DNA of 64,000 nt from Antedon mediterranea. Its lineage: Eukaryota; Animalia; Echinodermata. Positions 7,239 to 64,000 of the stretch are shown in pieces. Numbering within the stretch: position 1 is the stretch's first letter; each line of letters opens with the position of its first letter. The notes beneath the pieces are model-generated. The model saw only the letters and a program-made list of their open reading frames with translations, did no database searches and was not told the DNA's origin. Both the position numbers and the translations under genes were made by a program. The DNA lies in the NCBI RefSeq assembly GCF_964355755.1, contig NC_092676.1, positions 18,928,871 through 18,992,870 of the forward strand, read 5' to 3'.

Positions 7239-10200
7239 TTATTTAGACTTATTCCTCCGCTTGATTTGCTCACAATAGGTATCCGCAATCACCTTCTCTA
7301 TATTTCTTTCATTTTCCAGTAAGTTTCGAATATCATCATACGTTACGTCATTTTGAAGAATAATCAATCTACGGAGAAATAAACTCAATTTGAAATGAAA
7401 CACATAATATAGTAAATTCAGTCTTAAAACTTTCCATGAAATAGGCCACATGTGACACACATGCGATGCTATATTACGGAATTCGCCTATGACGGTGGCT
7501 AAATATTGTCATGCAGTATGTGGAGATACGGCACTGAAAATCGAGTGAATTCAAACTTACCTAGAATCTCTCTTTCTGGCTCGTCCTCTCAATTGAACCA
7601 GTGCTGTCGTTGAAGATGGTGTGTACAGTAAGATAACTAAATCACACTGTGGGATGTCAACGCCCTCTTCAGCAACGCTTGTTGCAACGATCACCTAAAA
7701 GACAACAGTCATAATGACAACTCATTTTTATACCTGGGGATTTCGACTCTGCCGAAATTTGCTTCTATCTGGCTACATCAAATACCAACACTACTGTACT
7801 ATGTTGGCCTACATATTCTCCGCGGCGCGCGATGTCTGCTAAAAGTGGCGTGTAAATTATCGCGTCGCAGCCACAGATAAACCGTTGATCTCCGAAGCAC
7901 AGCATCCTGTAGTTATACAGTATTGCCTTGCTTGAAATAAGTTTTCCTATTGCATTCTCGGAAAGGATTAATAGTATGCTGTTGATGATGCGAGACACTC
8001 GATCACCATCTACAACGTAGGGCACCGTATAACACTTAAAGAATAATTTGATTCCACAAAGTTCTAACCTGGTACATTTTTCTTTTAATACACTGCAATG
8101 CTTGACGTTGCCTACTGACAGACATCCCAGGGGCTGTAGTGCCATCTTTTCTTGGCTTCCTATCGCTTCCATGACCCACCAATTTTAGTGCTCGGATATT
8201 TTGACTTTTAAAAAAGGAATGGCTAAAAACAAGATGTTATATGGCACATTAAGTAGGGCCTAAGTGTATGTAGATTATAATTATTATTATATTTTATGTT
8301 TAGGCATAATATGTAGCCAATGATTACCAATAGTAAACAAATCACTGCCCTATCACATAGGTGGTAATCCCCTTGATACAGGGAAGTGTACTGGACCTAC
8401 GGTGTATATTCCATATCCTAGAAGACTTGCTCCACCACCACCAGAACTAGGAGCGAGTCGACTTCGAACCCATGCCTATATAAACGGCACTTAACCGATT
8501 GACTTAATTATATCAACATATTTTATTAGGTAGCGGAACTAACCACAGGGTATAGGCTCATGCATAACATGTGACGGAAACATCACATCACTATTATTGT
8601 CACGCCATAGTTGTTTTTTGCTGGTATCACCGTCATAAAAAGTCGTCGACGCTAACAGAATAACTGTAATTTTAGTTAGGCCTACCAAATACTTACCTGT
8701 TTAACTTTTGTGTTAACTCTTCTGCGTCTAACCTCGTTTGAACCATAACCAAAGCAAGTGGTTCGTCATCTCTTCGGTGTTCATCAACAAATCTTCGGCC
8801 TAACTGTCTAAGAATCGACACAACTAAGGGATTGGAAATCTCACAGTTTTCAACAGATTCCACAAACCGTTTCAAACACTCTTGATTGAGTGAGAACGTA
8901 TTATTTTTGGAATTGAAACATGTATTGATACATTTCTTCGCTTGAACAATACAGTTTCTCGTGCGTAATTGAAATACTGCAGTAACGAATAGAGACACAG
9001 ACTTTATGGTATAACCAATCAAGGGAGAATTCCGCACCTTTTCTCCGTCCGACAGTTCATTTAGAGCATCCAAGACCTGTACAACAGCACCACTATTCAA
9101 CACATCGTCTGGGTTAAGATTCCTGTCTTGTAACATGTAAGGCAAATTTGTTTTTGTCATTAATCGTGTTAAACAATGATTTGCCATCGCTATGAATTCA
9201 GATAATAGGAATTCAATGTCACGATCAAACTCTATCCTTGTCATTTCTAGTTTGCTTTGTGATTTTACTTTATTCAAATCATCCTTACACTTGACCACAT
9301 GTGTTATTTCTGCATTGCCTAGATTTGCTAGCAACTGCACTAACACTGACTTTGCGCCTTCTCTAGTCTTCCTTCCCGCTGGTGTTGCAGATATACCGAT
9401 GATCTTCGGCTTGTGGGATGACAAAGTGTAATTTTCTTTCATAATCATGTTGTAAGAGTGGTTCTTAGAACAGTGGTGAGTTTCATCAAAGACTATCAAG
9501 CTTATGTTTTGCCAATGCACAGTTCCTTTTTTAAGCATGTTTCGAAAATACTCTAAAAAAAAAAGATAATACTAGTTTCGAATAAAGCCTCCAGATTAAA
9601 GTATTAATCAAAGTTAATGATACAATATTTGTGTATTGAAAAAAAAATGTTATAAGTTTTTCTACAAAAGAGAGACAAGTACCTGCAGTGGCTACAAGTA
9701 GGCCTACGTATTGACTGAGAGGCCTACGGTAATTTGACGACGACTTCGTTGTGAATTGTCCACCTCCAGTTACTCCAATCACGTTTGGAGAGTTACGACC
9801 ATGTCCTTTTAACTCTTTTATGAAATAGTCGGTTTGTTGGATGCATAGAAGAATTTTGTCAACAAGAAACACAGCAATTCGTCCTGGATTCATGTCCAGC
9901 ATTGCTTGTATTATCATCGCTGCCACCAACGTCTTTCCAGTGCCTTTAAAATTGGAAGTCCAATATTTTATTATAATAATTAGTCACAAAACAGTGGTGT
10001 ATATCCCTCCTGTACAGGAGGGCGTGAAACAACCTCTTTCTGTTCAAGCTTGGTTCTGACTAGAGACGCAACACAAGGACGTCTAATCACAAGCGATAAC
10101 TATTGAAACTGTCGCTTGTCATTGGTCAACACGCTTTCGTTGCGTTTATGTCAGGGGTGGCGCCAGGATGTTCCCGACGCGGGGGCTACATTCCCCGACG

Positions 10201-13200
10201 AGGGGGCTATGCGAGCGAAGCGAGCATCACTAGGCTGGGGGCCAGGGGGCCGCCAAGGGCCCCCGGTGAGGGTCCAGGGGGCGAAGCCCCCGGAAGCAAC
10301 GCGTTCTAGCGTCATTTGAGGTCATTTTAATCAGATTTAGGGTAGCCATTTTTTATAATGCATAAATAAAATACTGCGTGCAAAAAAACGATGCGCGATG
10401 ACTGTTTCAATCCATATTTTTCAATTTAAGAAATAAAAGTTCAAAGAAAATTTAGAAAAATAGAGTTGGAGGTCCCGGAAATTGGACTTATTATACTTCA
10501 AAACATGAAATAAAATATATAAGTCCCTATCAAGGTTGTGACTGAGCTAAGAAATGTTTGAAAAATAGAGATGTTAGGTCCCGGAAAATGCACTTCTTGT
10601 ACTTCGAAATATGACCAGCTTTATTGTTGGGGCTGAGCTAAGAAACTGTTTAAAACTAGAGCTGCAGGTCTTCAAAAAATTGCATTTTATACTTCGGAAA
10701 CATCAGGCATAGAGGCTTAAAAAACGCAAGCGTAGACCTTTTTCAGTCGGGGAAATAAGTTTATTCCTCCCAAGTGTATGCGTGCGTCCCATCTGGACTT
10801 CCGAGTGATGAGAAATTCATGACATACAGGACATTGAAAATGTAATAACTTAGCTATAATAAGATGTTGGCTAAGCGAAAATGGCATGTTTTTTTGTTTA
10901 GTAATGGATGAAAAATTTATTTTAGGTGCCCCACGGTACAGAATGTTACTTGTAAATTAAAAAAATTGGTGAACATACGAACAATTAACATAATTCGTTT
11001 TTGCTGTAGTGTAGCGTACGTCGACGCAGTACACGACGTTAACCGTCAGTAAACTTCGCCTGGAAAATAACTACAGTACACATTTTGGTCCCTGGATGGA
11101 ATGTGATATCACGCGTCTCGACCCAACGTTGAACGATTCGTACAAAGGGATACCGCCAGACAAGTGCGAACCTAGCTATTGTTTAGTAGTAAGTTAGATC
11201 GCTGGCAATAATGAGTGCTTATAAAGTGCATAATATCACTCTGACGTACTCTCTCACGGTCAATGAAACGTCGCGGTTTTCTAGGCGCTGAAGCTAGCTA
11301 CGAAGTGAACGCGAACGCTTTTTACTGTATATTATATTCCCCGACAAAAAGTACCCGTGTTTCCTTCGGTAACCGTCGGTAAACTTCGCCTGGAAAATAA
11401 CTACATTACACATTTTGGTCCCTGGATGGAACTTGATATCACGCGTCTCGACCCAACGTTGAACGATTCGTACAAAGGGATACCGCCAGACAAGTGCGTA
11501 CCTAGCTAACGTTTAGTAGTAAGTTAGATCGCTGGCAATAAATGAATGCATAAAAGTGCATACTAGCCCTCTGACGTACTCTCACGGTCAATGGAACGTC
11601 GTGGTTTTCTAGGCGCTGAAGCTATATGAAGTGAACGCGAACGTTTTTTACTGTATATTATATTCCCCGACAAAAAGTACCCGTGTTCCCCGACGGGGGG
11701 GGGGGGGGGGGGGGGGGGGGCTAGGCTCCCCGACGAGGGGGCTAGAGCCCCCGTAGCCCCCCCGCTGGCGCCACCACTGGTTTATGTCCTTGCGTTACGT
11801 CTTAAAAATGGGAACTAATCTTTACTAAATGGGTTTTAAGACGTAGGTCATAGTAGCAAAGTCAGTGAGATCATTAAGCATCAACCCGATCAATGCCGTC
11901 ATTAAGCTTGATTTCCACCAGGACGCAACCTATGGAATTGACTAATCACAAGCGACAGTTCAGATAATCTATCGCTTTTGATTGGTCAATTTTCTTTTGT
12001 TCATTTTTAGTCGCGTGGAAGCGACTCTATAGTTCACTATGTCGGTCGGTCGGTCTGTCTGTCTGTCTGTCTGTCGGTCCGGTATCACTATGCGTTTTAT
12101 CGCTTTATGACCTTATCTTGATATCAGTTTAATCTAGCTAAGTCAATTTTTCACAGAATATTCCTTATGGCCAGGAATCGATGTGGTTATGTTTTCACGG
12201 TGCGCAATAAAAAATTACGCGGTCTACGCACGATTTAACGAAATCACGTTTGTAATCATATCTTAACAACCATGAATCACAATTAAATAAAATTTGGTAC
12301 TCATAAATTTCAGGGCATAAATCATCATATGGCAATACAATTACGTGCGTAGCGCATGTAACGCATGCGTAAGCGCGCTTAAAATTTTCAAAATTTATTT
12401 TTGATGAAATAAGAGTACGTTTCAGGCAATTTTAAGCGTTTACAAAATTGCCATGAGTGCGCAGATTTTTGCGCGCGCACTGCGCGTTAAATGTTATTGC
12501 GCACTCTTTTTGCCCGATTTCTGTTTTCTTGACATACTTTTCAACTCGAAATTACGTTATACGAGCACGTCAAAAGTGACAGGCTACGCACGTGTAAATT
12601 AAAAAAATATAAATGTTTTTAAACATTTTAACATTTTTAAACATGTTCAGTAATTTCGGTCAGTATAGTTCACTATGTCGGTCGGTCCGTCTGTCTGTCT
12701 GTCTGTCGGTCTGTTTGTCTGTCGGTCCGGTATCACTATGCATTGTAGCACGCGACTTAATGGCTGTTGGCCTTGTTTATTGTACATTTACTTTGTATAC
12801 CGTACTATTTTAAAATACATTATTACCTGTTGGAAGGAATATGACCGCATTACGTCTTTCCATAGCTTGATAAAATAGTTCCTTTTGATAAGCTCTTGGT
12901 GTAGTTGATGTTAACATATTCACATTCAAATTGTTGTTATTAACGTTTAGCTGTAACGGCGGTGACGATGGCTGTAACGGCGGTGACGATAGCTGTAACG
13001 GCGGTGACGGTATCCGTTTTGGTGTATTTTTTAAGTCTTGGTCGAATGTTAATTTGCTATGTTTTAACGGTAACGGTTGTCGTTTTGTTGAATTGAAAAC
13101 TCTTTTATGTTTTTGCCCCTTAATATGCGTTTTGTAATCAGTGATTGACGTAAAACATAACACTCTGCATGGTTGGCAACCTCTTCTCAAAATGTGGGGT

Positions 13201-13526
13201 ATCTGATTGCAGTGTTTCTCTGCTGATATCGGGCCACTAAAATGGACATCGCATGTAGAGCAAAATGTCGCAGCATCACTAGGCCTATTAGGCCTACTAG
13301 TTATTTCATTGTCTGTTTCTTTAACAGACTCGAACCATAGCTCTACCATTCGGTGGTGCCTAATGCTTTCGGTGTGGGCCTGGAGAGAAATATTTCCACT
13401 CATGTTCTTATTACAAGCCACACAGTGAAAAACAGCGCCTTTCGCTTCAATAGGGTTTTCAAAAAACACATCCTCCATTAATGATTCGTCGGATGATTGG
13501 ACTGCAAGATTGTTATTTTTGTCCAT
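7239..13526 (-). CDS. Paralogue A: 3x U1C/matrin-type zinc finger + RIG-I/Dicer-family DExH-box helicase (about 744 aa, 6 coding exons)
   Basis: Exons 13526-12827, 9943-9683, 9552-8697, 8222-8069, 7694-7561, 7368-7239, all GT-AG and phase-compatible. Motifs: Q-motif PRAYQKE, I LPTGTGKT, II DETHH, III SAT, IV VMVQTR, LVGHG...[27 protein letters not shown]. Fingers C-x2-C-x12/13-H-x5-H. The start codon (first ATG of the exon) is uncertain. Confidence 0.88.
8277..8505 (-). mobile_element. tRNA-derived SINE-like element in intron 3 of paralogue A
   Basis: On the - strand there is a B-box-like GGGTTCGAAG near the 5' end and an (AAT)n tail at 8277-8293. Related sequence occurs at about 42690-42950 and 61400-61570. 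Confidence 0.5.
10152..11779. mobile_element. Non-autonomous hAT-like transposon, copy 1, inserted into a Harbinger H1 MITE in intron 1 of paralogue A
   Basis: TIRs CAGGGGTGGCGCCAG / CTGGCGCCACCACTG; 8-bp TSD GTTTATGT (10144-10151, 11780-11787); internal tandem duplication of about 330 bp; no transposase ORF. Confidence 0.9.
12005..12777 (+). mobile_element. Helentron-associated (DINE-1/HINE-like) non-autonomous element
   Basis: Begins TTTTTAGTCGCGTG, has (GTCY)n microsatellite blocks at 12041-12080 and 12677-12730, a subterminal inverted copy CACGCGACT, and a 3' mini-hairpin GGCTGTTGGCC followed by TTGTT. Confidence 0.65.
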
Positions 13527-14609
13527 CGTTGTTGTCCTACTGGTTTTAATAATATTCAAGTTATTCTCTGTCCTACTACGTTTCAACGACCATAAAGGGG
13601 AGCAAATTTAATAGGCCTAGTTAAAAATAAGTAAAAATATATACCAATACAATACAAGTAGTGAAAGTCGTATATAATAACGCTCAATGATAGAGTTATA
13701 CAGCTTGTTTGTAATTATTTCTCTTTACTTTGGCTTTTAATGTATATACTAGACTTTAAGATATTTAAATAAAAAAATAGGCCTACAACTAATTAAAATA
13801 AATAAATAATTAATTTTTAACAAAATTCACACTTAACTGTTGCAATTAGCTATCGTGCGGTATTAAACATGTTAGTTAGTGGTTAAGTAATATAAAAACG
13901 ATGCGCGAACATTGTTTCAGTATTGTTCGTTTGGTTCCAACTAGGACGCCACGCAAAGATGTAAGCGCCACATATGATTTGACCAATCAAGCGATGAATT
14001 ATTTGAACTATCACTTATCATTGGTCATTGCCGCCTACAGTTATTGGAACCAACCTTTAAGCCTAGGCCTAGTCTACGGCAGGTATAATTATGTTAATTT
14101 GAAAATTACCAAATAGTACCTAGTTTTACACACAAATGTTTACATTTAAACTTTTTTTTTACACCCGCGTTATGTAAAATCAATGCCCCGTTGTTAACAA
14201 TTGGTGGATACATAAGTTTGGGACTCCTTATATGAAAGATAGCCGAACTACTTCCTAAATAAAACATGAATAGGCTACGCATGTAAAATGAGTTGCTCAT
14301 GGGATCAGAACCCCATACATCGACATGCAAAGTCCATAGTCCAATTCTTACGTCACAGCTTATGGATATGACTAATGAATATTCATGTTTGTTTTGTGAC
14401 GTTTCATGAGGGGTCCCAACTTATGTACGAAAAGAAATATTGCAACCGGCGACGGCGATGTAAGTTTGTTTCTCTTGAATTATTTAATTTACTTACTTTT
14501 ACCCTCCATGCTTACATTATGTAGACAAACTTTTAATTAACTTGAATTAAATTCATCACATTTATATCATAATTCTATTGATCTCTTATTATACTACAGC
14601 CGTATGTAC

Positions 14610-16031
14610 CAGGGGTGGCGCCAGGATCTTCCCGACGCGGGGGCTACATTCCCCGACGAGGGGGCTATGCGAGCGAAGCGAGCATCACTAGGCTGGGGGA
14701 CAGGGGGGCCGGCAAGGGCCCCCGGTGGGGGTCCAGGGGGCGAAGCCTCCGGAAGCAACGCATTCTAGCGTCATTTGAGGTCATTTTAATCAGATTTAGG
14801 GTAGCCATTTTTTCCATTTTTTATAATGCATAAATAAAATACTGCGTGCAAAAAAACGATGCGCGATGACTGTTTCAATCCATATTTTTCAATTTAAAAA
14901 ATAAAAGTTCAACGAAAATTTAGAAAAATAGAGTTGGAGGTCCAAAATATATAAGTCCCTATCATGGTTGTGACTGAGCTAAGAAATGTTTGAAAAATAG
15001 AGATGTTAGGTCCCGGAAAATGCACTTCTTGTTCTTCGAAATATGACCAGCTTTATTGTTGGGGCTGAGCTAAGAAAATGTTTAAAACTAGAGCTGCAGG
15101 TCTTCAAAAAATTGCATTTTATACTTCGGAAACGTCAGGCCTAGAGGCTTAAAAAGCGCAAGCGTAGACCTTTTTCAGTCGGGGAAATAAGTTTATTCCT
15201 CCCAAGTGTATGCGTGCGTACCATCTGGACTTCCGAGTGGTGAGAAATTCATGACATAGGCCTACAGGATATTGAAAATGTAATAACTTAGCTATAATAA
15301 GATGTTGGCTAAGCGAAAATAGCATGTTTTTTTGTTTAGTACGGAATGGATGAAAAATTTATTTTAGGTGCCCCACGGTACAGAAGGTTACTTGTAAATT
15401 AAAAAATTGGTGAACATACGAACAATTAACATAATTCGTTTTTGCTGTAGTGTAGCGTACGTCGACGCAGTACACGACGTAACCGTCGGTAAACTTCGCC
15501 TGGAAAATAACTACAGTACACATTTTGGTCCCTGGATGGAACATGATATCACGCGTCTCGACCCAACGTTGAACGATTCGTACAAAAGTGAACGCGAACG
15601 CTTTTTACTGTATATTATATTCCCCGACAAAAAGTACCCGTGTTCCCTTCGGTAACCGTCGGTATACTTCGCCTGGAAAATAACCACATTACACATTTTA
15701 GTCCCTGGATGAAACTTGATATCACGCGTCTCGACCCAACGTTGAACGATTCGTACAAAGGGATACCGCCAGACAAGTGCGTACCTAGCTAATGTTTAGT
15801 AGTAAGTTAGATTGCATAAAAGTGCATATTAGCCCTCTGACGTACTCTCACGGTCAATTGAACGTCGTGGTTTTCTAGGCGCTGAAGCTATAGGCCTATG
15901 AAGTGAACGCGAACGTTTTTTACTGTATATTATATTCCCCGACAAAAAGTACCCGTGTTCCCCGACGGGGGGGCTAGGCTCCCCGACGAGGGGGCTAGAG
16001 CCCCCGTAGCCCCCCGCTGGCGCCACCACTG
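14610..16031. mobile_element. Non-autonomous hAT-like transposon, copy 2
   Basis: Same TIRs and internal sequence as 10152-11779; 8-bp TSD GTATGTAC (14602-14609, 16032-16039). Confidence 0.9.
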
Positions 16032-18904
16032 GTATGTACGCGCACGCCTAATATTATGTGAGCTTTCGCATCTGAACGATCAGAAGAAAGAAGACGATAA
16101 ATCTATACGAAAGATTAAACTGCGTATTAATATTGGTCCATGGGCAAACGTTTGTCCATGATTGGTCGAACTGGCATTCAGTCCAACAACCAGACGGAGC
16201 AAAGTTTATGACGTCATGGTGAAACTTTTCAACTGTAAAAAAATGGCCGCTCAGCCTACGAAGCGAAATACAGTAGCCTATACTGTATTTCATTCTGTGT
16301 TCATTCATTTTTAGTTAACTCTAAAAATTAGATATGTATATAGTAGTACATTATGTAGAATGTGTGAAGACTGTCTAAATACATAAACAAAATCAACATA
16401 GAAAAGGGCCTACTCTATTTTAGATCACCAGGCCTAAACTTTACTGACTTAATTAAGAGTAAGACATCGCCTGGCAAAAAACGTACTTTGAATAAATTCT
16501 TAAACGCCTATCAAGCCTGCAGGACGCGTATATAATCAGCTGCCTGGAGGTGGTTTAGAAGTGAGGCATGACCGTCGTCGCTGTCTTTTGTTTGTTACGT
16601 CCCGATGCGAAAGCTCATGTCTATGATATTGTGAAACTTCTAATTTGAAACAAAACAAGTAACTTTCTGTTTGCTTACTTACTTCTTAATATTCAACTGT
16701 CGGGTAGAATTCAAATATTCAACGTGTTTTATACAGTACAGAGTCACTCATGGTGCTGTCTATAGAGCCGTATTATTATTATACACGTGACACAACACGT
16801 GACACGGTTGTGTAAGCTTATAACTGTACACAATCAATACATGCCTCATTGAAAATTTAAAAACCCCGCGAAAAATACGATTTGCAATGGCCTTTTTTTC
16901 TTTTCTGGCTATCGTCTACCTTTACTATTCGCATAAAACATTTTCTCTTTTAATAGAGATATCTCTATTAATAGAGATATCATAGAAGAGATTAATTTTT
17001 CTTTATTTAACTTTATGAACCATGTCATTACCAATGATTTTCGGACATCAACACAGTAGGCCTAATGTTAATAAACGTATGAAAGTAGGGCGGGTTAGGG
17101 CAGAGGAAAATCATATTTTGCCCTTCGACCACCGCTAACACTGGGCCTACAAAGATTGGCCCTTAAGATCACATCAACTCCTCTGTATAACAGTTTGCAT
17201 AACCAAAATACAAGAAGTTCGTATTTCTAAAAACACCCGAATATTTATGCCAAAAAGGTTGTAGAGATATTATTATATACAAGAAATATTTCTTACAACA
17301 AAACGCCGCTCGACATTTTAAAATTAATCATTGTTCTTTCTTCAGATATATTAAATGATTAATTATTAACTGCAAAAATACATACAAATCAAAGATAGTT
17401 CTTTAATTATGAATCACACTATGCCTATTTTTTCACTAGTTAATTGTACTATAGATGCACATTTTTTTAATAATTTATGGACATTTTGTTACCATGGAAA
17501 CGTGTAACAAATTAAAAATATGTTGGTTAATCGTAAAAATATACAAAATCTAACATAGCTATTTAATTGTAAATCACATCATGCCCATTTTGGTTAGTGT
17601 TAGTAATCTGGTTGTATTTCATTGAATAATTGATATTTCTGCTAATTTTCAACAGCATTTGAAAGAAGACATGTGGACTTTCCAACAATGTATTATTTGC
17701 ATAATAATAATCTACTAATTAAAAAATGGCATTTAAAAATGGTAAAATTTGAACTTAATGTGCTGTGTGTGTGTGACCTCAACCTGTAGGCATGCAACTG
17801 AATACCCTCTAGAGTCAACGTGACTTCACGGTGGTACAAGTGAGAAATTCTTCCGCAGTCTGTTGATTCGCGTCAACCAATCAAAGGGCGAGAATCCAAA
17901 ATCGTTCAACCGTGGGCCCTCATAGACTCTCTTTTCCCATACGTTTTTTGGGTCCAGCAGCTGGGACCTATAAATTATAGTCGAGTTTACAAATTCACAA
18001 AACTGTCGGCCTTAGAACTATAGCTACCGCGATGATAAAAGCTTCTTAATGAGTATATCCTCTTGGGACATAGGTGGCTAAAGTCGCGACGCGAAAAAAA
18101 GAATTACATAACTTATAGAACTGTGATGGCGCTAGTTAGTCTTCGATATGCGTTATTAATAGAATGACGTAATGCATGCTATAAATAGTTGATTGCATGG
18201 ACAGGTGGATCGGCGAATTGTACGCACTTGTATTGTAACAGGACATTGTTGTTGTTGTTTCTCAATTCTTTCTTTAAATTTGCTGCTCACAATAGATATC
18301 CGCAATCACCTTCTCCATATTTTTTTCATTTTCCAGTAATCTATAAATATCATCCTGAGTGGCGTCATTTTGAAGAATAATTAATCTATGAAGAAAATAA
18401 TTTCAATTCAATAAACTTACACTTTTTACAGAGAAGCATCAAAATAACGAAATACTAATACAGAGACCTGAGAATGCCAGTAAGTTACTAAACAAAATAA
18501 TTTAAGAAAAATTACTGCAGAAAGGAGAGAATTCTTTCTTTGTTTTGTTAAAATATTAATCGAACTTGCCTAGAATCTTTCCTCCTGGCTCGTCCTCTCA
18601 ATTGAACCAGTGCTGTCGTTGTAGATGGTGTGTACAGTAAGATAACTAAATCACACTGTGGGATGTCAACGCCCTCTTCAGCAACGCTTGTTGCAACGAT
18701 CACCTAAAACACAATAAAAGAACACTGTTTATGTGGTTTTGCACTCAATAATGACGGTCTAAGTTTTCATTTACGCAATTCCATCGACATTATCTGAAAA
18801 TGAAGTTAATTTTAAAATGCATTCTCAGTCCCGGTAGTTCGTTTTATGAAAAAAGTGAGACTCCCTCTTCCCCACACATCCCCAGCAAACGGGCAAGATT
18901 CTTA

Positions 18905-19101
18905 AGCTCTGTCTACACTATCAAACTTTATATGACAAGAAAATGTGATGTGCCTATATATGGACATGATGATGTCAAATCACTACCATATTTGGGCATA
19001 TCACTACCATATTTAGGCATATCACTACCATATTTAGGCATATCACTACCATATTTGGGAACATCACATTATCAAACTAGTTTGATAGTGTAGACAGAGC
19101 T
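18905..19101. mobile_element. PIF/Harbinger-type MITE (family H2) with internal 21-bp tandem repeat
   Basis: TIRs AGCTCTGTCTACACTATCAAAC / GTTTGATAGTGTAGACAGAGCT, TTA TSD. Relatives at 57526-57670 and about 52660-52771. Confidence 0.8.
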
Positions 19102-20813
19102 TTAGGCAACTGTTAAAATTCGTCAAATTGGTCAACTTAAAACCACTTTAAGAATAAAAATAATGATTCCACAAACTTCTAACCTGGTACATTTTTCTTG
19201 TAATACACTGCAATGCTTGACGTTGCTTACTGACAGACATCCCCGGGGCCGTTGTAGTGCCATCTTTTCTTGACTTCTTGTTGCTTCCATGACCCACCAA
19301 TTTTAGTGCTTTGATTTTGTGATATTTTAAAAAGTGATGACTATAAGAGAAAATGTTAGACATTAATTTGGTCCTTTTTCCTAAGTGTATATTAATTTAC
19401 AGTAGTTTACTAGTCAGCGTTTAGAACTAGTCTCGCACAATTTCTTCCGGAGTTTTTCTGCGACATTGACAACCCTATCAAACTATGTTTTAATTACTTT
19501 AGCACTTACCTGTTTAATGTTTGCGTCAACTCTTCTGCGTCTAACCTCGTTTGAACCATAACCAAAGCAAGTGGTTCATCATCTCTTCTTTGTTCATCAA
19601 CAAATCTTCGGCGCAACTGTCGAACAATTGCTACTACCAAGTGATTCGAAATATCGCAGTTTTCAACAGATTCCACGAATCGTTTCAAGTGTTCAAATGT
19701 ACCGTAACTGAAATGTTCTTTGATAAATATTTTCACTTGAGGAAGACAGTTTCTTGTGCGTAATTGAGATATGGCAATAACCAATTGTTTCATGTAATGT
19801 ACTATATCCTCGAGGTAATTGCTCAGATTTTCTCCGTCCGACATTTCATTTAGAGCATCCAAGACCTGTACAACAGCACCACTATTCAAGACATCTTCTG
19901 GGTTAAGATTCCTGTCTTGTAACACGCAAGAAAAAACTGTTTTTGTCATTAACTGTCTTAAACAATGATTTGCCATCGCTGTAAATCCAGATAACAAGAT
20001 TTTAATTTCTTTATCAAACTCTATCTTTGTCATTTCCAGTTTGCTTTGTGACTTTACTTTATTCAACTCTTCCTTACCCTCCTTCACATATGCTATTTCT
20101 GCACTGCCTAGGTTTGTTAGCAACTGTACTAACACTGATTTTGAGTCTCTTCTAGTCGTCATTCCCGCTGGTGTTGCTGAGAATCCGATGATCTTAGGCT
20201 TGTGACGTGATACTGTGTAATGCTCTTTCATGATCATGTTATAAGGGTGATTTTTGGTACAGTGGTGTACTTCATCAAAGACTATCAAACATATGTTTTC
20301 CCAATGTACAGTTCCTTTTTTAAGCATGTTTCGAAAATATTCTTTGAAAAAGAACAAGAAAAATTATGTAGGGCCTACGCCACGTAAGGAAATGCATGCG
20401 TGTGCAAATGATGGAGGATGGAGAGAAAACCACCCATTTTCTGGCCCCTCTAAAATCTATAATTCACCTGTTTTGGATATCCCGAGATCCGCTCCAAAAG
20501 AGACTAGGCCTACTAACATAATACGAATTACAGAACTTTGAAATTCAAGATACAGTAAAATCAAAGTAGGCCTACCTGCAGTGGCTACAAGAACTTGATA
20601 CTGACTGAGAGTCCTACAGTCATTTGACGACGACTTCGTTGTGAATTGTCCGCCTCCAGTTACTCCAATCACTTCTGGAGGGTTACGACCATGTCCGTTT
20701 AACTCTTTTATTAAGTAGTCGGTTTGTTGGATACACAGAAGAATTTTGTCAACAACAAACACAGCGATTCTTTGTGGATTCATGTCCAGCATTGCTTGTA
20801 TGATCATCGCTGC

Positions 20814-20949
20814 TGTTATATCTTATGTGTCTTTATTGCATCTTTCATTGTGTGTACATACAGATTACTAACCATGTGGTTATAGTGTATCGATCTACCT
20901 TAACCCATAATGCCTTGCTTTCCCTTAGTCTCCCAATCCAGACACTACA
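20814..20949 (-). repeat. 3' LTR
   Basis: Identical to 25424-25559, adjacent to the PPT. Confidence 0.95.
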
Positions 20950-21268
20950 TCTTCCCCCTTCTTTAGCTAAACTCACAACCCAATTAACTCCATACAATAT
21001 GATATTCATTTTTTTTTTTTTTTTTTAACTTTAACAATAACAAAACAATTTAACTTTAAACTTTAAATCAAATATCATCATACATGCATATTATAAATGT
21101 TTCCTTGATCACATATCATTTCTTATTATTTCCAAGATTCCTATAATATCAATGAACAACTTAGCATATAATAGCACTTAAAACTTTCAACATCTTAACG
21201 AAATCTCAACTTCTGGTGAACTTTAAAAATTAACATAACTCATAAATATGACTTCTTAATTTTACACT

Positions 21269-24200
21269 TTAAAAATCATCAAACCTCTTGGGTTTTCTCT
21301 TCTCTCTTACTGGTCTGCTTTTAACTATCATATTTTCATTACTCTTTGTTATTTTGTCACTTTGCTCAGTATCAACTGGCTTATTCTGTTCAGTGTTATC
21401 AATCTTACTGTTACCATTAACTTTACTAGTATCAATTTGTTTTAAATTATCATTTGGTGTGTTAACATTTGCTTCATTTACTCTTTCATTATAGGATCGA
21501 ACATGTGTCGAATTCCTTTTGTATCTTACACCCTGTGGTGATTCAACCACTACACTATTCCCTTTTTTCTCTATTACTACATATGGTTCTGTGTGATATG
21601 GCGTACTCATCTTGTCCCTCTGTGTCACTTTCACTAAAACCTTATCTCCTTTACACACATCACTTTCCTTCGCACCTCTCTTCTCATCAATGTACAGTTT
21701 GTTCTTTAATTTAGACACGGCATCACGATCAGAAATTTCTTCGTCCATTATTGTATTGTCATCTAATTCTGGCAATTTTGTACGCAACTTTCTATTCCAC
21801 ATCATTTCTGCTGGTGTCACTCCGGTAACACTATGTGGGGTTGTACGATATGCGAATAGGTACACTCGTAATTCTTTTTTCCAGTCTTTTCCTTCAGCTT
21901 GCGCAATGCGAATTCTTTTCATTAGTGATCTATTTTGTCGTTCAACCTCTCCGTTTGCAGCTGGATGTAATGGTGTTACACGTCTATGTCTGATTCCATT
22001 TTCCTTCAGGTAGGTTTCAAACTCATTGGACACAAACTGGGCACCATTATCTGAGGTAATTGATTTTGGTATGCCATGTTGAACAAACATATTTTCAAGT
22101 GTGTCTATAATTTTCTCACTTGTGATTGTCTTCATTAAACTAATTTCATAATAACGACTATAATAGTCTACCACCACTAGTACATTATCCTTCGATGGAA
22201 ACGGTCCCAGCAAGTCAATCGAAATATCTTGCCATGGTCCTGTTGGTAGTTGTGTTGGCTGCAATGGTTCTGGTGCTGGCATCGAACTTGTTATCTGACA
22301 CTCATGACATGTTTTAACATAGTCTTCCACATTCTTCTCCATCCCAGGCCACCATACCTTGGTTCTAAGCCTTTGCTTGGTTTTGACTATCCCCAAGTGT
22401 CCTTGGTGTGCTAATTCAATACACTGTAATCTATATTTTTCTGGAATTACAATCCTTCTGTTTCTAAGAATTAAATATCCAAAACATGCAAGTTCTTGTT
22501 GTATTGCATTATACTGAATCAAGTCTCTGTCCCATTTATCTGTCCGTATACTATTTCTCACTTTACTCAATTCAGGATCTTCCTTTGATGCCTCTTCAAC
22601 TTCACGTGATGATAGTGCACATGGGGTTGCATTTGATGCTACCAATCGAATATACATCTCTGTGTCATCACTGTCATTATTCTGTTTGCCATCAGTTTCT
22701 ATTGGTAACCTTGATAATATATCAGCAATGTTATTCTTACCAGGTACATACTTTACTGTATAAGAATAGGACATAAGTCTCATCACCCACCTTTCAATCC
22801 GTGCATTTGGTTTAGACTTTGGTCCATACAGGCCTTCGAGTGGTTTATGGTCAGTTATCAATTCAAACTGTAGTCCATATAAGTAAACATGAAACCTTTC
22901 CATAGCCCATACCACTGCCAATGCCTCTTTCTCCGTTGTTGAATATTTCTTTTCAGTAGCTGATAATGTTCGGCTTGCATAACTTATAACTCTGGTTTCA
23001 CCATTGTATTTCTGAATTAAAACTCCACCAATGCCTACATTGCTTGCATCTGTCACCAACTGAGTACTTTCTGCATCTAATCTGAAATAGCCTAAACATG
23101 TTTCATTAGTTAAGCATTTCGTAAGTTTTACATAACTATTTTCTTGTTCAGACCCCCAATAGAAATTACAATCTTTTCGCACTAGTCGTCTTAAGGGTTC
23201 CGCAACTGTAGCTAAATTTGGAATGTATCGTGCTGAGAAGTTAACTAGACCTAAGAAACTTTTTACTTCTGCAGCTGTTTTTGGTCTCTTTGATTCTGCC
23301 AATGCTCTGACTCGCCCAATTGTAGGTTTGATTCCGTTTGCTGACAATATGTGACCCATGAATGTTATCTGTGATACAGAAAATTGACACTTATCCTTGT
23401 TGAGAGTCAAATTCTTTTCTTTAAATTTCTCAAGCACTACACGAAGTCTGTCATCATGTTCAGTCTGTGTTCTCCCGTGTACAACAATGTCATCTGATAT
23501 GTTAGCTACACCTTCGCATCCACTCAGCGTCTGACTGATTACTCTTTGGTACTTTTCAGGGGCAGCATTTATCCCGAACATCAACCTTTTGTACCGATAA
23601 AGACCTTTGTTAGTTATGAAAGTTGTGATGTTTCGTGATTGCTCATCTAATTCAATTTGGTGATAGCCGTAATTCATGTCTAATTTAGAGAACACTGTAC
23701 TTTGATTCATTTCATACAACACTTCATCAACTGTTGGGATTGGATGCCTCTCCCTTTTAACTGCTCGGTTGGCCTGCCTCATATCTACGCAGAGGCGTAT
23801 ATCCCCATTTGGTTTTGGCACTACTATGACTGGACTTACCCAATCACTTGGTTCGTCTACCCTTTCAATTATGTCAAGAGATTCTAACTCATCTAATTTA
23901 TCACTCACTTTATCTTTGAGACTAAACGGTATTCTATACATGCTCTGAACAACTGGTGTTACCTGTTCATCAATAAATAAATGTAACTTATAATCTTTTA
24001 ATTTACCAATACCTTCAAATACCTGTGTATACTTATCTTGTACACTATTTATCACTTGTGGTATTACAATATTTAACACTCCAAGCTTCATTGCAGTATC
24101 ACCTCCCAACAAAGCAGGGCCTTTCCCTTTTAACACATATACATCTGCTGTTATTTTAGGCTCAGTATTATTACCTGTACCTTGAAAAATTGACATGTTC

Positions 24201-25327
24201 GTAGTAAATTTTCCTAACAACTCTAATGGTTTTTCTGACCCATATGCATATAACTTTCTGTTTGTCAACTCAGATTTGCATTTAATTTTCTTGGATTTTA
24301 ACTGTTGCCATAAATACTGATCTATGATATTAACTGTAGCACCACTATCAACAATCATTTCTACCTTATGTACATCCATACAAACATTTATCTTTGTAGT
24401 TTTAGAATTATTATTTTGTATACCAAAAGCATAGTCATCGTCTTCACTTCCATTTTGAACATTACTAATACCACTACTCTTTTTGTCTTTACCTAATTTA
24501 GTTTTGCAACAAATAGCAAAATGTCCCAAAATTTTACATTTATTACATTTCTTGTCTCTTGCAGGACAACATTTATCCTTAGCCAAATGTCCTTCTCTTC
24601 CACAGCGAAAGCATTTCCGGTTATCTTGTCTATCATTGAACTTTGACTTACTTGTTCTGTTAGGCCTACCACTTGAATTTCCAGCTTGGTACCTGTTTCT
24701 GCTCGTCGTGCTTGATCTTGACCATCTCTCATTCCTCACTGCATTCATGTTTGTTGTTTCCACTCCATTAACTTCTTGTGACATCTCCTTTGCTTGCTTC
24801 TCACTCATTTCAAATGTGCTAGCTATTGCTTTTAAATTGGTTAATTTCAAAGTATTTCCTTTTTCTAGCAATTTTAGTCTCAGTCTATTTGATTTGCATT
24901 TTTCAATAACATGGTCTCTAATTAACTCATCAACATTCGCATCATCAAATTCACATTTTGCAGCCTGCTGCCTCAATCTGTTTATAAATTGGTGAATTGT
25001 TTCGTCATCACCTTGCGTCAGTTTTCTAAAACAATAACGCTCATACGGTACGTTGGTTTTCATAGCAAATTGTTTATTTAATGTGTTTACAACAACATCA
25101 TACTCATCTGTTCCGTTCTCCTCTGTTAAACAGTCATATATGTCCTGTACAGCCATTCCGGAGCAATGCAATAACAAAGCTTTCTTTTGGTTTTTGTCTA
25201 CTACTCCTTTACCAGTAGCATATAATTCAAAACTGCGAAGCCATTTCTTCCACCGTTCAGCCGAAGCGTGCACATCGTGTGGATCATACGCAGCGATTCC
25301 AGTGATTTCAACGTTTACAGCGGTCAT
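21269..25327 (-). CDS. Gag-Pol polyprotein of the Gypsy element (1352 aa)
   Basis: Single open ORF: gag with two zinc knuckles (CFRCGREGHLAKDKC, CNKCKILGHFAICC), protease DSGA, RT (LCVDMR, ISDD), RNase H (TDAS, EKEALA, TDHKPL), integrase (H..H..C..C, SDNG, NGEVER), in PR-RT-RH-IN order. Confidence 0.95.
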   Translation of the reverse strand: MTAVNVEITGIAAYDPHDVHASAERWKKWLRSFELYATGKGVVDKNQKKALLLHCSGMAVQDIYDCLTEENGTDEYDVVVNTLNKQFAMKTNVPYERYCFRKLTQGDDETIHQFINRLRQQAAKCEFDDANVDELIRDHVIEKCKSNRLRLKLLEKGNTLKLTNLKAIASTFEMSEKQAKEMSQEVNGVETTNMNAVRNERWSRSSTTSRNRYQAGNSSGRPNRTSKSKFNDRQDNRKCFRCGREGHLAKDKCCPARDKKCNKCKILGHFAICCKTKLGKDKKSSGISNVQNGSEDDDYAFGIQNNNSKTTKINVCMDVHKVEMIVDSGATVNIIDQYLWQQLKSKKIKCKSELTNRKLYAYGSEKPLELLGKFTTNMSIFQGTGNNTEPKITADVYVLKGKGPALLGGDTAMKLGVLNIVIPQVINSVQDKYTQVFEGIGKLKDYKLHLFIDEQVTPVVQSMYRIPFSLKDKVSDKLDELESLDIIERVDEPSDWVSPVIVVPKPNGDIRLCVDMRQANRAVKRERHPIPTVDEVLYEMNQSTVFSKLDMNYGYHQIELDEQSRNITTFITNKGLYRYKRLMFGINAAPEKYQRVISQTLSGCEGVANISDDIVVHGRTQTEHDDRLRVVLEKFKEKNLTLNKDKCQFSVSQITFMGHILSANGIKPTIGRVRALAESKRPKTAAEVKSFLGLVNFSARYIPNLATVAEPLRRLVRKDCNFYWGSEQENSYVKLTKCLTNETCLGYFRLDAESTQLVTDASNVGIGGVLIQKYNGETRVISYASRTLSATEKKYSTTEKEALAVVWAMERFHVYLYGLQFELITDHKPLEGLYGPKSKPNARIERWVMRLMSYSYTVKYVPGKNNIADILSRLPIETDGKQNNDSDDTEMYIRLVASNATPCALSSREVEEASKEDPELSKVRNSIRTDKWDRDLIQYNAIQQELACFGYLILRNRRIVIPEKYRLQCIELAHQGHLGIVKTKQRLRTKVWWPGMEKNVEDYVKTCHECQITSSMPAPEPLQPTQLPTGPWQDISIDLLGPFPSKDNVLVVVDYYSRYYEISLMKTITSEKIIDTLENMFVQHGIPKSITSDNGAQFVSNEFETYLKENGIRHRRVTPLHPAANGEVERQNRSLMKRIRIAQAEGKDWKKELRVYLFAYRTTPHSVTGVTPAEMMWNRKLRTKLPELDDNTIMDEEISDRDAVSKLKNKLYIDEKRGAKESDVCKGDKVLVKVTQRDKMSTPYHTEPYVVIEKKGNSVVVESPQGVRYKRNSTHVRSYNERVNEANVNTPNDNLKQIDTSKVNGNSKIDNTEQNKPVDTEQSDKITKSNENMIVKSRPVREKRKPKRFDDF

Positions 25328-25423
25328 CGTTACAACAGTATTAAAACAAATATATCGCCAAAAATTACAGTATTGAAACTTCTAATCACTTGTGGTTCGA
25401 TATTCTCCTTAACTCGTCGCCAA

Positions 25424-25559
25424 TGTTATATCTTATGTGTCTTTATTGCATCTTTCATTGTGTGTACATACAGATTACTAACCATGTGGTTATAGTGTAT
25501 CGATCTACCTTAACCCATAATGCCTTGCTTTCCCTTAGTCTCCCAATCCAGACACTACA
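25424..25559 (-). repeat. 5' LTR
   Basis: Identical to 20814-20949, adjacent to the PBS. Confidence 0.95.
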
Positions 25560-27699
25560 GCTGCCACCAACGTCTTTCCAGTGCCTTTAAAATTTGAAGT
25601 CAAGTTTTAATACTCCTTTTATATCGCCTAACAGACTCCAGAGCTGAGTAAGTATACACACTGTGGTGTCAACGCCGGCATTTCGTATGGTGTGCGCTCC
25701 GCAGTGTGTGTTGGCTCTGGAGTTTTCTAGGCGATGGGAAAGGAGAATAGTAATAACATATAGTCACAATCATCAGATTCAGTGGTGTATCTACCAAACC
25801 CAGTCGATCCCAATGACATCATCACAACGTCATCGTCAACGTGTCATTATCATCATCATTTGCATCACATAACAATCATACTTATTGTTGTAAATTTATA
25901 TAGGCCTATTGTAGGCTATATTATTATTATATTGTGATTGTTTTAAGATTACGTTATTGGGCCTACCTGTTGGAAGAAATATGACCGCATTACGTCTTTC
26001 CATAGCCTGACCAAATAGTTCCCTTTGATAAGTTCTTGGTGTAGTTGACGTCAACTTATTCACATACAAACTGCCGTTAAAGTTTATCTTTATCGGTCGT
26101 AACAGTTGCCGTTTTGGTGCATTAATTAAGCCGTGATCAAAAATATTTTTTTTATGTTTTTGCCCCTCAACATGTGTGTTATAATGACTTTTTGACGAAA
26201 AACATAACACTCTGCATGGTTGGCAACCTTTTCTGAGGTCATAGTCAGAATCAAGAGATGAACTTCTGTACGATAGGGGTGTTTGTATATGGTGTTTGTT
26301 CTTATAATGTTGATTTGCCGGTATCGGACCACTAAAGTGGACATCACACAAAGAACAAAAAGTTGCATCACAACCTTCCATTCCATTGGCTGGTTCATTG
26401 GGACTAACAGACTCTAGCCATTGTTCTTCCAGTTGACGGTGTTTGATGCTTTCGATGTGGGCCTGGAGAGGAATATTCCCACTCATGTTCTTATTACAAG
26501 CCACACAGTGAAAAACACCGCCTTTTGCTTTAATAGGGTTTTCAAAAAACACATCTTCATTGGATGATTCGTCGGATGATGGATCAGATTCCTCAGTTGT
26601 AACGGTTTCTTCCGCTGATTCGTAGGATGATTTGTCATATGTCCCACTAGCACACAATAACTTTGGATGTTTTCTAGGCCTAGTGGTGTTAATAAGGTCT
26701 GAATCATCCCTGTATCTAAGATTGAACGTACGTGAAAGAGGAACCATCTTTGTAATTCTAAATTTGGTTGTCTTAAGATCTTCTGTCACTCTGTAAAAAT
26801 AGCATTAATAATGCACATACAGACACTATATTTCTGTACAATATACGTTGTTCACAACTCTCCCCCTCCCCCCGCCTCTCTATCTCTTTGTTATTGGCAA
26901 AGAGAGCCCGTGAAATTGTCTTTAAATGAGGTTATAATATCCCAAAATTAGACATTTTAAGGCCAATCTATCCAATCAAATTTAAAAGAAGCTAATTTCG
27001 CTTGATTCTGGTGGTGTGGCTGTCACAATTTTCCAAAAAAAGTGACGGGTGGGGAACAGTCCCTTTTTTGGTGGGGGAGGGATGGGGGCGGATCAATGAT
27101 CAGTGTCCTCAAATATAATCGTGTTTGGTCTCATTTGAAAGTAAATTTAATTTTAAACACTGGAAACTGATTGCTATGGCAAGGCAATAAAACAAAAATG
27201 TCGACTGAATATATATAGGCCTACTTTTTTTAAAGGTAAAAATATAAAGCTAGGGCCTACCGGTTTTTCCTGGAGGTGAAAAGTGTCTGGTAAAGGCGAC
27301 AACGACGTCTTTTGGGTTGGGATTGCAACCGTAGTCTTGAAATGGTTGTAAGCGTACATGATTTCCTACCCATTCTTGGTTCCTTTGAAAACCTCTATGA
27401 TTTCAAAGAAACAAATTACTAATTTCTCAAAACAATTAAACCGTCACAAACAATCAAATTAAGGAACTTTGTTCTAAAGGTCATTTATAGAAGAAAGAAA
27501 CGAAGGATGTTAAAATGAAGTTATGAACTATAAATTTCTTTAAAAAATTATTTCTTTAAATGAAAATGTGAATTAAATGAAATACAGCAAAAACAAAATT
27601 AATGTAAACTTTTGTTTTGTTAACCAGCAAAAATAAAGAGCTTGACAATTATTCTCTTAATCCTCAAACAAATGGCATTACCTTTATAAATTGAAGCTA

Positions 27700-55529: not shown

Positions 55530-63374
<7,845 letters not shown>

Positions 63375-64000
63375 GGTAGAGCATAAACTATAGAAACAAT
63401 TAAATGATATATTCAGATGTTTGTCAAATGAATGACACAGACAGTGTTCTAATGCAGAGTCCAAAGGCCCCTATGCAAGGGCCTTCTTCTGGACCTAAAT
63501 CATTAAAAAGATAAATATTTTGGCAAATATGGCATTTCATATGTATGCATACAATACTACTTTCATGAGCTTCGTATTTTCAGACAAAAATCGAAACACT
63601 GAGTAGTGGACTAATAAAAGACAATAGCTACAGACTTGGGGCAAGTCTAGAAAGCCTCCAACACCATTGAGGAAAAGTCAGTGGCCAATTTTTTGATGTA
63701 TTTTAATGCAGTCTTTTGTCATATATTTACTGTAAATGTTAATACTTTAAACTTCTAATTCTGACTTTTGTGTGTCAACATTGATGAAATTGTGCTAAAA
63801 CAAAAGGCAGCCATATACATGTACTTATTTAACTTTCCCTAAATAGTATACAGTACTACAGTTTTTATACTTTACTGTTCTGTAGGCCTTTTCGGAATTG
63901 TATTTTATTTTGTGGGCTCTGCTCTGGGGTCCCAAGGTTTAGCCAGTGATTGTGCATAGCCGTTATGCCACTGGGGACAGGGTCTCTTGAATGGGTTTTT

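What the first reader, a model, noticed from the sequence alone, without database searches (positions are those of the whole stretch)
7239..26790. Tandem pair of zinc finger + RLR-type helicase genes: no CARD, no CTD, three N-terminal matrin/JAZ-type fingers instead
Seen: both paralogues splice into proteins of about 750 aa. Each has three C-x2-C-x12/13-H-x5-H fingers (e.g. [50 protein letters not shown]), then a full Hel1-Hel2i-Hel2 helicase (LPTGTGKT, DEx[32 protein letters not shown]). Both stop about 35-45 aa after motif VI. Known: RIG-I/MDA5 carry N-terminal CARDs, RIG-I/MDA5/LGP2 carry a C-terminal Zn-binding RNA-recognition domain, and Dicer carries PAZ/RNase III. Fingers of this spacing are the dsRNA-binding type of ZNF346/JAZ, ZMAT3 and ZNF385. 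Inference: an invertebrate dsRNA sensor or effector in which N-terminal fingers replace the CTD as the RNA-recognition module. Lacking CARDs, it would act as an LGP2-like regulator, an RNAi co-factor or a direct antiviral translocase. I do not know this architecture from a characterised protein.
Basis: partly seen in the sequence, partly recalled or inferred. Interest (0 to 1): 0.85.

Follow-up and report, generated by a model that had tools for sequence, protein, structure and literature searches.

The report
Unnamed animal zinc-finger Dicer-type helicase family
These two neighbouring feather-star genes, one broken here by a jumping gene, belong to an apparently unnamed family found from sponges to molluscs and echinoderms that joins zinc fingers to a Dicer/RIG-I-type motor, and it likely grips and moves along double-stranded RNA rather than sending an immune signal.

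Summary
The architecture is real, but 'two intact RLR-type genes' is not. Copy A splices into 744 aa, identical to a RefSeq Antedon mediterranea 'DHX58-like' model. It has three matrin/JAZ-type fingers, a full Hel1-Hel2i-Hel2 helicase and a 47-aa tail, with no CARD or CTD. Copy B is cut inside coding exon 2 by a full-length Gypsy retrotransposon and stops at 328 aa. An RNA-like run from another study shows B spliced without the element, with the finger exon joined to helicase exons. The layout is a family: 29 near-full relatives, with named ones from sponges, coral, a flatworm, molluscs, hemichordates and crinoids. Of these, 28 carry 1-13 fingers and 26 end within 60 aa of motif VI. The helicase groups with dsRBD-helicases (HelF-like layout) and RdRP-fused helicases. 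One clade with RLRs is rejected (AU p=0.0006), and with Hef/FANCM (p=0.012). The same N-terminal slot holds a dsRBD or an RLR-CTD-like domain in sister clades, and coral members add Z-alpha. Best reading: a dsRNA-binding ATPase that regulates or assists RNA silencing or dsRNA defence; function untested. Ten literature searches found no description of the family.

The parts
12827..13526 (-). Copy A exon 1: ATG, three matrin/JAZ-type fingers (13424-13356, 13262-13194, 13178-13107), linker, Q motif, start of motif I
   Evidence: zf-C2H2_jaz E=6e-7, zf-met E=4e-6
9683..9943 (-). Copy A exon 2: rest of motif I, motifs Ia-Ic
8697..9552 (-). Copy A exon 3: motif II (DExHH), motif III, Hel2i, motif IV
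8069..8222 (-). Copy A exon 4: motifs IVa/IVb
7561..7694 (-). Copy A exon 5: motifs V and VI
   Evidence: Helicase_C E=5e-10
7239..7368 (-). Copy A exon 6: last strand, one predicted terminal helix, stop; no CTD follows
27261..27396 (-). Copy B first coding exon (ATG 27373; 5' edge uncertain by 2 bases); a further 5' exon ends at 27682
   Evidence: joint 26790/27261 and loose end in run X1; matches the N-terminus of P0002
25967..26790 (-). Copy B finger exon (fingers 26507-26439, 26357-26289, 26225-26154), Q motif, start of motif I
25560..25584 (-). Copy B exon 2, first 25 bases, up to the insertion site
20814..25559 (-). Full-length Gypsy-type LTR retrotransposon inside coding exon 2 of B: LTRs 25559-25424 and 20949-20814 (identical), gag-protease-RT-RNaseH-integrase frame 25381-21272, target duplication at 25564-25560 and 20813-20809
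   Evidence: absent from the spliced contig of run X1
20576..20813 (-). Copy B exon 2, remainder after the element
19510..20341 (-). Copy B exon 3 (motifs II, III, Hel2i, IV)
19184..19340 (-). Copy B exon 4
18570..18703 (-). Copy B exon 5 (motifs V, VI), followed by a GC donor
   Evidence: exon 4-5 join seen as a loose end in X1
18274..18385 (-). Copy B last coding exon and stop (18276-18274)
   Evidence: same end as database model P0003

Best explanation
The locus is a tandem duplicate of an old animal gene family that fuses matrin/JAZ-type zinc fingers to a Dicer/RIG-I-class helicase with no CARD, CTD or nuclease, and the protein likely uses the fingers to grip long double-stranded RNA and the predicted-active ATPase clamp to move along or remodel it, as a helper or brake of RNA silencing or dsRNA defence rather than a signalling receptor. 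Shown: gene structure, domain layout, family breadth, tree position outside the RLRs, presence of the catalytic motifs, and disruption of copy B in this haplotype. Inferred: (1) the fingers bind duplex RNA; (2) they feed it to the Hel1-Hel2i-Hel2 clamp, taking the role played by a dsRBD or CTD-like domain in sister clades; (3) ATP turnover drives translocation or protein displacement; (4) the output goes through partners, since the protein carries no effector domain.
For: Model pLDDT 78.8; residues 207-742 align to RIG-I 240-778 (Z 37.3, rmsd 5.0, 505 residues) and the RIG-I CTD has no counterpart. Best PDB sequence match is the ancestral Dicer helicase AncD1D2 (E=4e-36), ahead of RIG-I (5e-31). 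Motifs I, II, III, V and VI are all present in 28 of 29 members. The last finger lies 49-69 aa before motif I in 25 of 28 members, and 138 of 139 inter-finger linkers exceed 8 aa. The top ten fold matches of the finger model are fingers of RNA-binding proteins, including JAZ bound to dsRNA (Z 5.4) and ZFa (Z 4.5). Tree: family 88/91, joined with dsRBD-helicases 98/92 and with RdRP-fused helicases 95/82, apart from RLRs 99/92. The same slot holds dsRBDs or an RLR-CTD-like domain (HHalign 95.9%, E=5e-9; 20 column-shuffled controls at most 1.05%); coral members add Z-alpha ahead of the fingers. Dictyostelium HelF is dsRBD plus helicase (PMC4894637, passages) and its loss makes cells hypersensitive to RNAi (PMC2175303, passages). 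ZNF346/JAZ binds dsRNA (10.64898/2026.06.03.729416, passages).
Against: No binding, ATPase, localisation or induction data. The finger fold does not single out dsRNA: TUT1 (Z 6.3), TUT4 and spliceosomal chains tie with or exceed JAZ, all Z are under 8, and Foldseek found nothing at E<=0.001; the sequence match to ZFa is not significant (E=0.36). Ordinary C2H2 fingers elsewhere in the window also hit zf-C2H2_jaz (E=7.5e-6). Only finger 3 of copy A keeps the G-x-K-H ending found in most family fingers (G in 100 of 174). The helicase fold does not exclude FANCM (Z 33.5). Family monophyly is 88/91, not starred, with long branches and only 7 RLRs and 3 Hef/FANCM-like rows in the tree. Splicing of copy A was not seen in reads; X1 has only low-depth cover there. 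dN/dS between A and B is 0.47, weak purifying selection.
Confidence: 0.55

Rival explanations
1. It works like LGP2: a CARD-less partner that loads on viral dsRNA with canonical RLRs and tunes their signalling.
For: Same fold as LGP2/MDA5/RIG-I; RefSeq names several members DHX58-like or RIG-I-like; tandem duplication and variable finger number (1-13) resemble immune genes.
Against: Not an RLR by descent (AU p=0.0006); lacks the CTD and everything after the first tail helix. That LGP2 needs its CTD for RNA ends is recalled knowledge. Function could still converge.
Confidence: 0.17
2. It is a housekeeping remodeller of structured cellular RNA or RNPs (snRNA, pre-miRNA, tRNA, pre-ribosome), not a defence protein.
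For: Best fold matches of finger 1 are TUT1, TUT4, spliceosomal U1/U2 chains and a tRNA dimethylallyltransferase; the tree within the family broadly follows animal groups.
Against: Its nearest helicase relatives are RNA-silencing proteins; finger number varies widely; Z-alpha gain in corals; one copy tolerates an insertion; no vertebrate, arthropod or nematode among the named members (weak, many hits are unnamed).
Confidence: 0.15
3. It is a FANCM/Hef-like translocase on branched DNA or R-loops, with the fingers binding DNA or RNA-DNA hybrid.
For: FANCM translocase scores Z 33.5 and archaeal Hef E=2e-27; Hef-type cores also end soon after motif VI (P0018, 48 aa).
Against: One clade with Hef/FANCM is rejected (p=0.012; only 3 archaeal-type rows, no animal FANCM). 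Motif VI reads like Dicer/RLR, not like Hef. The motif Ia D-[RK] signature is in 24 of 28 members, 10 of 13 RdRP-fused and 5 of 7 dsRBD helicases, but 0 of 3 Hef and 0 of 8 RLRs.
Confidence: 0.07
4. The models are incomplete or the genes are decaying RLR or Dicer fragments.
For: Copy B is disrupted here; the 3' ends were not read by long reads.
Against: 26 of 29 members from several phyla end 38-60 aa after motif VI and none matches the CTD profile; B is spliced and open in run X1.
Confidence: 0.04

Closest known systems
Dictyostelium HelF (dsRBD + DExH helicase; RNAi suppressor)
   Same: N-terminal dsRNA-binding-type module before a Dicer-like helicase, no nuclease or CARD; proteins of this layout (P0078, 836 aa, dsRBD 3-75, against HelF 837 aa, dsRBD 2-76) fall in the sister group.
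   Different: dsRBD instead of zinc fingers. That P0078 is a HelF orthologue is inferred from layout only. The original HelF paper was not held.
Helicase-fused eukaryotic RdRPs (Dictyostelium Rrp type)
   Same: Next-closest helicase clade (95/82); shared motif Ia signature; helicase on the RdRP noted in PMC2175303 (passage).
   Different: They carry an RdRP after the helicase and an RLR-CTD-like domain before it; this family has neither.
LGP2/DHX58 and other RLRs (RIG-I, MDA5, DRH-1)
   Same: Hel1-Hel2i-Hel2 fold and first tail helix; no CARD, as in LGP2.
   Different: No CTD, N-terminal finger array, separate lineage.
Dicer helicase domain (AncD1D2, DCL1)
   Same: Best sequence matches in the PDB.
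   Different: No DUF283, PAZ or RNase III in any of the members scanned with Pfam; Dicers form their own clade 99/98.
ZNF346/JAZ and ZFa dsRNA-binding finger proteins
   Same: Finger spacing, long linkers and fold.
   Different: They have no helicase (recalled); dsRNA specificity of these fingers is untested.
Anthozoan Z-alpha candidate of Romero et al. 2024 (PMC11298590)
   Same: The Acropora Z-alpha in its table S6 looks, by eye, orthologous to the Z-alpha of the Montipora member.
   Different: The passages read treat it as a Z-alpha candidate and do not mention a helicase family; its domain-architecture figure S3 could not be seen.

Membership tests
RIG-I-like receptors | C-terminal RIG-I_C-RD (CTD) domain, the criterion used in PMC8998645 | tested here: not met
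   No match in the window or in 29 members to a CTD profile that recovers a held-out RLR at E=3e-11; no PF11648 in the members scanned; criterion read
RIG-I-like receptors | Helicase core groups with RLRs | tested here: not met
   AU p=0.000635 against one clade of 14 members + 7 RLRs
RIG-I-like receptors | N-terminal CARD/death-fold domains (RIG-I, MDA5) | tested here: not met
   Pfam shows fingers only; N-terminal model is three small finger folds
RIG-I-like receptors | Hel1-Hel2i-Hel2 fold | tested here: met
   Z 37.3 to RIG-I over 505 residues
Dicer | RNase III, PAZ and DUF283 domains after the helicase | tested here: not met
   Protein ends 47 aa after motif VI; no such Pfam hits
FANCM/Hef | Helicase core groups with Hef/FANCM | tested here: not met
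   AU p=0.012; only 3 archaeal-type rows, so moderate strength
FANCM/Hef | Translocation on branched DNA | not testable with these tools
   Needs biochemistry
HelF-like dsRBD-helicases | N-terminal dsRBD | tested here: not met
   No dsrm hit in the members scanned; sister group only
Dicer/RLR-class helicase superfamily | Motifs Q, I, II (DExH), III, IV, V, VI in order with a helical insertion | tested here: met
Dicer/RLR-class helicase superfamily | dsRNA-stimulated ATPase activity | not testable with these tools
   Needs biochemistry
Matrin/U1/JAZ-type zinc fingers | C-x2-C-x12-H-x5-H spacing, long linkers, matrin-type fold | tested here: met
   x12 in 162 of 174 fingers; median linker 38 aa; zf-met/jaz above cut-off; fold matches Z 4.5-6.3
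Matrin/U1/JAZ-type zinc fingers | dsRNA-binding (JAZ/ZFa) subtype rather than snRNP/TUT subtype | tested here: inconclusive
   JAZ, TUT1 and spliceosomal fingers tie within 1 Z

The most novel reading that the evidence does not exclude
Animals inherited a further lineage of Dicer/RLR-class RNA motors, besides Dicer, RLRs and RdRP-fused helicases. In it an ancestral N-terminal RLR-CTD-like domain was swapped for an expandable array of JAZ-type fingers, plus Z-alpha in corals, making a length-tunable long-dsRNA sensor or effector kept from sponges to hemichordates and missed because RLR surveys require a CTD.
Probability: 0.35. Interest if true: 0.85.

Novelty: new variant of a known kind. Interest (0 to 1): 0.63.

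Why it matters
Invertebrate dsRNA defence is catalogued through RLRs, Dicer and ZNFX1. This family is labelled DHX58-like, RIG-I-like, Dicer-like or uncharacterised in databases, and a survey that demands a CTD (PMC8998645) cannot count it. It offers a testable candidate dsRNA factor in farmed bivalves and abalone, corals and sponges. It also shows that the RNA-recognition module of this helicase class is interchangeable and can sit on either side of the motor.

Tried and rejected
No whole genome is held for this window, so other copies, RLRs and RdRPs in this animal were not checked. No run on record as RNA was listed; X1 is guessed to be RNA and its GT-AG joints fit that. One search was flooded by repeats and gave no usable joints for copy A. 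A cryptic donor in the last exon (AAG|GTG) was considered as a route to hidden CTD exons and rejected: no CTD match downstream, relatives end at the same place, and an X1 contig covers 18295, beyond that site. The database isoform that joins B's finger exon to A's helicase (P0002) is not taken as real; see Noticed in passing. The ESM Atlas gave generic helicase clusters under 0.9 and no structure. The profile search was crowded by finger words and returned 16 proteins. Three look-ups of earlier scan findings returned nothing. Ten paper searches listed no description of the family. Passages of PMC11103948, PMC9334734, PMC8998645 and PMC10328071 showed none; PMC6396948 has no occurrence of 'helicase'. 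Subscription journals are mostly not searched. No complex prediction was run, since the partner in question is RNA.
Full report
Observation. The window holds two minus-strand paralogues with the same intron positions. Copy A has six coding exons with GT-AG ends and gives 744 aa. A search with its exon 3 returned that exact protein, named by NCBI 'ATP-dependent RNA helicase DHX58-like isoform X2' of the crinoid Antedon mediterranea. It has three C-x2-C-x12/13-H-x5-H fingers (residues 35-57, 89-111, 117-140), motifs Q to VI, and 47 residues after motif VI. The finger exon passes the Pfam cut-offs for zf-C2H2_jaz and zf-met. The pattern occurs nowhere else among the 2840 six-frame fragments of the window.

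Correction. Copy B is not intact here. Just after motif I, exon 2 is cut by a 4746-bp Gypsy-type element with identical 136-bp LTRs, a 5-bp target duplication and an open gag-pol frame. Identical LTRs imply a recent insertion (inference). Read as it stands from its ATG at 27373, B stops after 328 aa inside the LTR; at the empty site it would be 809 aa. Run X1 (a different study; RNA by guess) has contigs with GT-AG joints at 27261/26790, 25966/25583, 20576/20341 and 19510/19340, and a joint that skips the element. One 1002-base contig carries the joints from the finger exon through exon 2 into exon 3. So B is spliced and open in another animal, and the finger exon is joined to the helicase exons. 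Splicing of A was not seen directly. A and B are 75% identical over 689 aligned residues, with dN/dS 0.47.

Family. A search of 1.84 billion representatives listed 150 hits. From these and I took 29 high-scoring, near-full proteins with motifs I and VI; fragments were left out. Of the 29, 28 have 1-13 fingers before the helicase (the one without has only about 60 residues before motif I). 26 end 38-60 aa after motif VI; the three longer tails (86, 226, 520 aa) do not match a CTD profile. Named members come from sponges (Oscarella, Sycon), coral (Montipora), a flatworm (Macrostomum), cephalopods, gastropods, bivalves, hemichordates and crinoids. Six of the 20 clusters looked up had no name. The last finger sits 49-69 aa before motif I in 25 of 28, and five catalytic motifs are intact in 28 of 29. 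The exception is the coral protein, which has gained a Z-alpha domain and has degenerate motifs V and VI.

Descent. A FastTree of 138 helicase cores and an IQ-TREE mixture-model tree of 47 chosen from these plus two added rows both make the family one group (88/91 in the latter). It joins dsRBD-bearing helicases (98/92) and RdRP-fused helicases (95/82), with Dicers (99/98) and RLRs (99/92) apart. AU tests reject one clade with RLRs (p=0.0006) and with Hef/FANCM (p=0.012); both groupings were named in the finding beforehand. Limits: long branches, few outgroup rows, and group labels from Pfam rather than names. A D-[RK] signature in motif Ia agrees with the tree.

Structure. The model (pLDDT 78.8) aligns to RIG-I 240-778 and ends in one long helix, with no CTD counterpart. 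The fold alone does not separate RLR, Dicer and FANCM (Z 37.3 against 33.5 for FANCM). The finger model matches matrin/U1-type fingers of RNA-binding proteins, JAZ-dsRNA and ZFa among them, at Z 4.5-6.3. Foldseek gave nothing significant. The finger class is established; a preference for dsRNA is not.

The N-terminal slot. In sister clades the place of the fingers is taken by dsRBDs or by a zinc domain like the RLR CTD. A profile of 16 such N-termini, which I picked after seeing weak CTD hits, aligns to a profile of 7 RLR CTDs at 95.9% probability, against at most 1.05% for 20 shuffled controls. Pfam gives sub-threshold RIG-I_C-RD hits on four of the nine sister-group proteins scanned.

Mechanism. 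Most likely (0.55) the fingers hold long duplex RNA and present it to the helicase clamp, which hydrolyses ATP to move or displace proteins. Lacking CARD, nuclease and polymerase, it would act through partners as a helper or brake of RNA silencing or dsRNA defence. The nearest studied analogue is HelF, a dsRBD-helicase (PMC4894637, passages) whose loss sensitises cells to RNAi (PMC2175303, passages). All functional steps are inferred. Rivals: LGP2-like partner of RLRs (0.17), housekeeping RNP remodeller (0.15), DNA translocase (0.07), incomplete models (0.04).

Novelty. Ten full-text searches found no description of the family. The lophotrochozoan RLR survey required a CTD and never mentions zinc (PMC8998645, passages). 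One paper flagged what looks like the coral member's Z-alpha domain (PMC11298590; passages, section 4, legend file and one table row). Its architecture figure was not visible and may show the helicase. Subscription literature is largely unsearched. Verdict: real, an apparently unnamed variant lineage of a known helicase class, function open; interest 0.63.

Noticed in passing
window 20814-25559 (-): Gypsy-type element with identical LTRs. Contig depth over it is about ten times that of flanking unique DNA in runs X4/X5 and it is covered in the RNA-like run X1, suggesting a young multi-copy family; depth is not a copy number.
   Followed up: partly
window 25560-26228 and 9683-9943: Database isoform P0002 joins B's finger exons to A's helicase exons, and a contig in runs X4/X5 joins B intron 1 to an exon 2 with A-type letters. 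A and B share 35 identical bases at this point, so an assembly or annotation artefact is likely; a hybrid B/A allele or a collapsed empty allele is not excluded.
   Followed up: partly
P0071, P0055, P0060, P0145 and related RdRP-fused helicases, first ~120 residues: An N-terminal domain homologous to the RIG-I CTD (HHalign 95.9%). RdRPs with a built-in CTD-like domain plus helicase resemble a DRH-RdRP pair in one chain; not found in the papers read, not searched for separately.
   Followed up: partly
P0182/P0049 (Montipora) and P0063: Members with a Z-alpha domain ahead of two fingers; the Montipora protein has degenerate helicase motifs V and VI, so it may be a catalytically dead dsRNA/Z-RNA binder.
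   Followed up: partly
window 14535-18274: Run X1 has contigs of depth 40-48 here, similar to B's exons, which may be a 3' UTR of B about 4 kb long.
   Followed up: no
window 18570: Intron 5 of copy B has a GC donor where copy A has GT.
   Followed up: no
window 10147-11781, 14603-16033, 30013-31230: Three copies of a dispersed repeat of about 1.2-1.6 kb, 87-96% alike, one inside intron 1 of copy A; very high depth in DNA runs. Type not determined.
   Followed up: no
window 28731-29395: Tandem array of a 95-base unit.
   Followed up: no
window about 56100-63500 (-): Multi-exon gene with classical C2H2 fingers; resembles ZNF143/ZNF76 (name recalled, not tested). Unrelated to the finding.
   Followed up: no
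window 60270-61130: Tandem repeat giving a 287-codon open frame of about 15-residue units inside that gene's span; probably non-coding.
   Followed up: no
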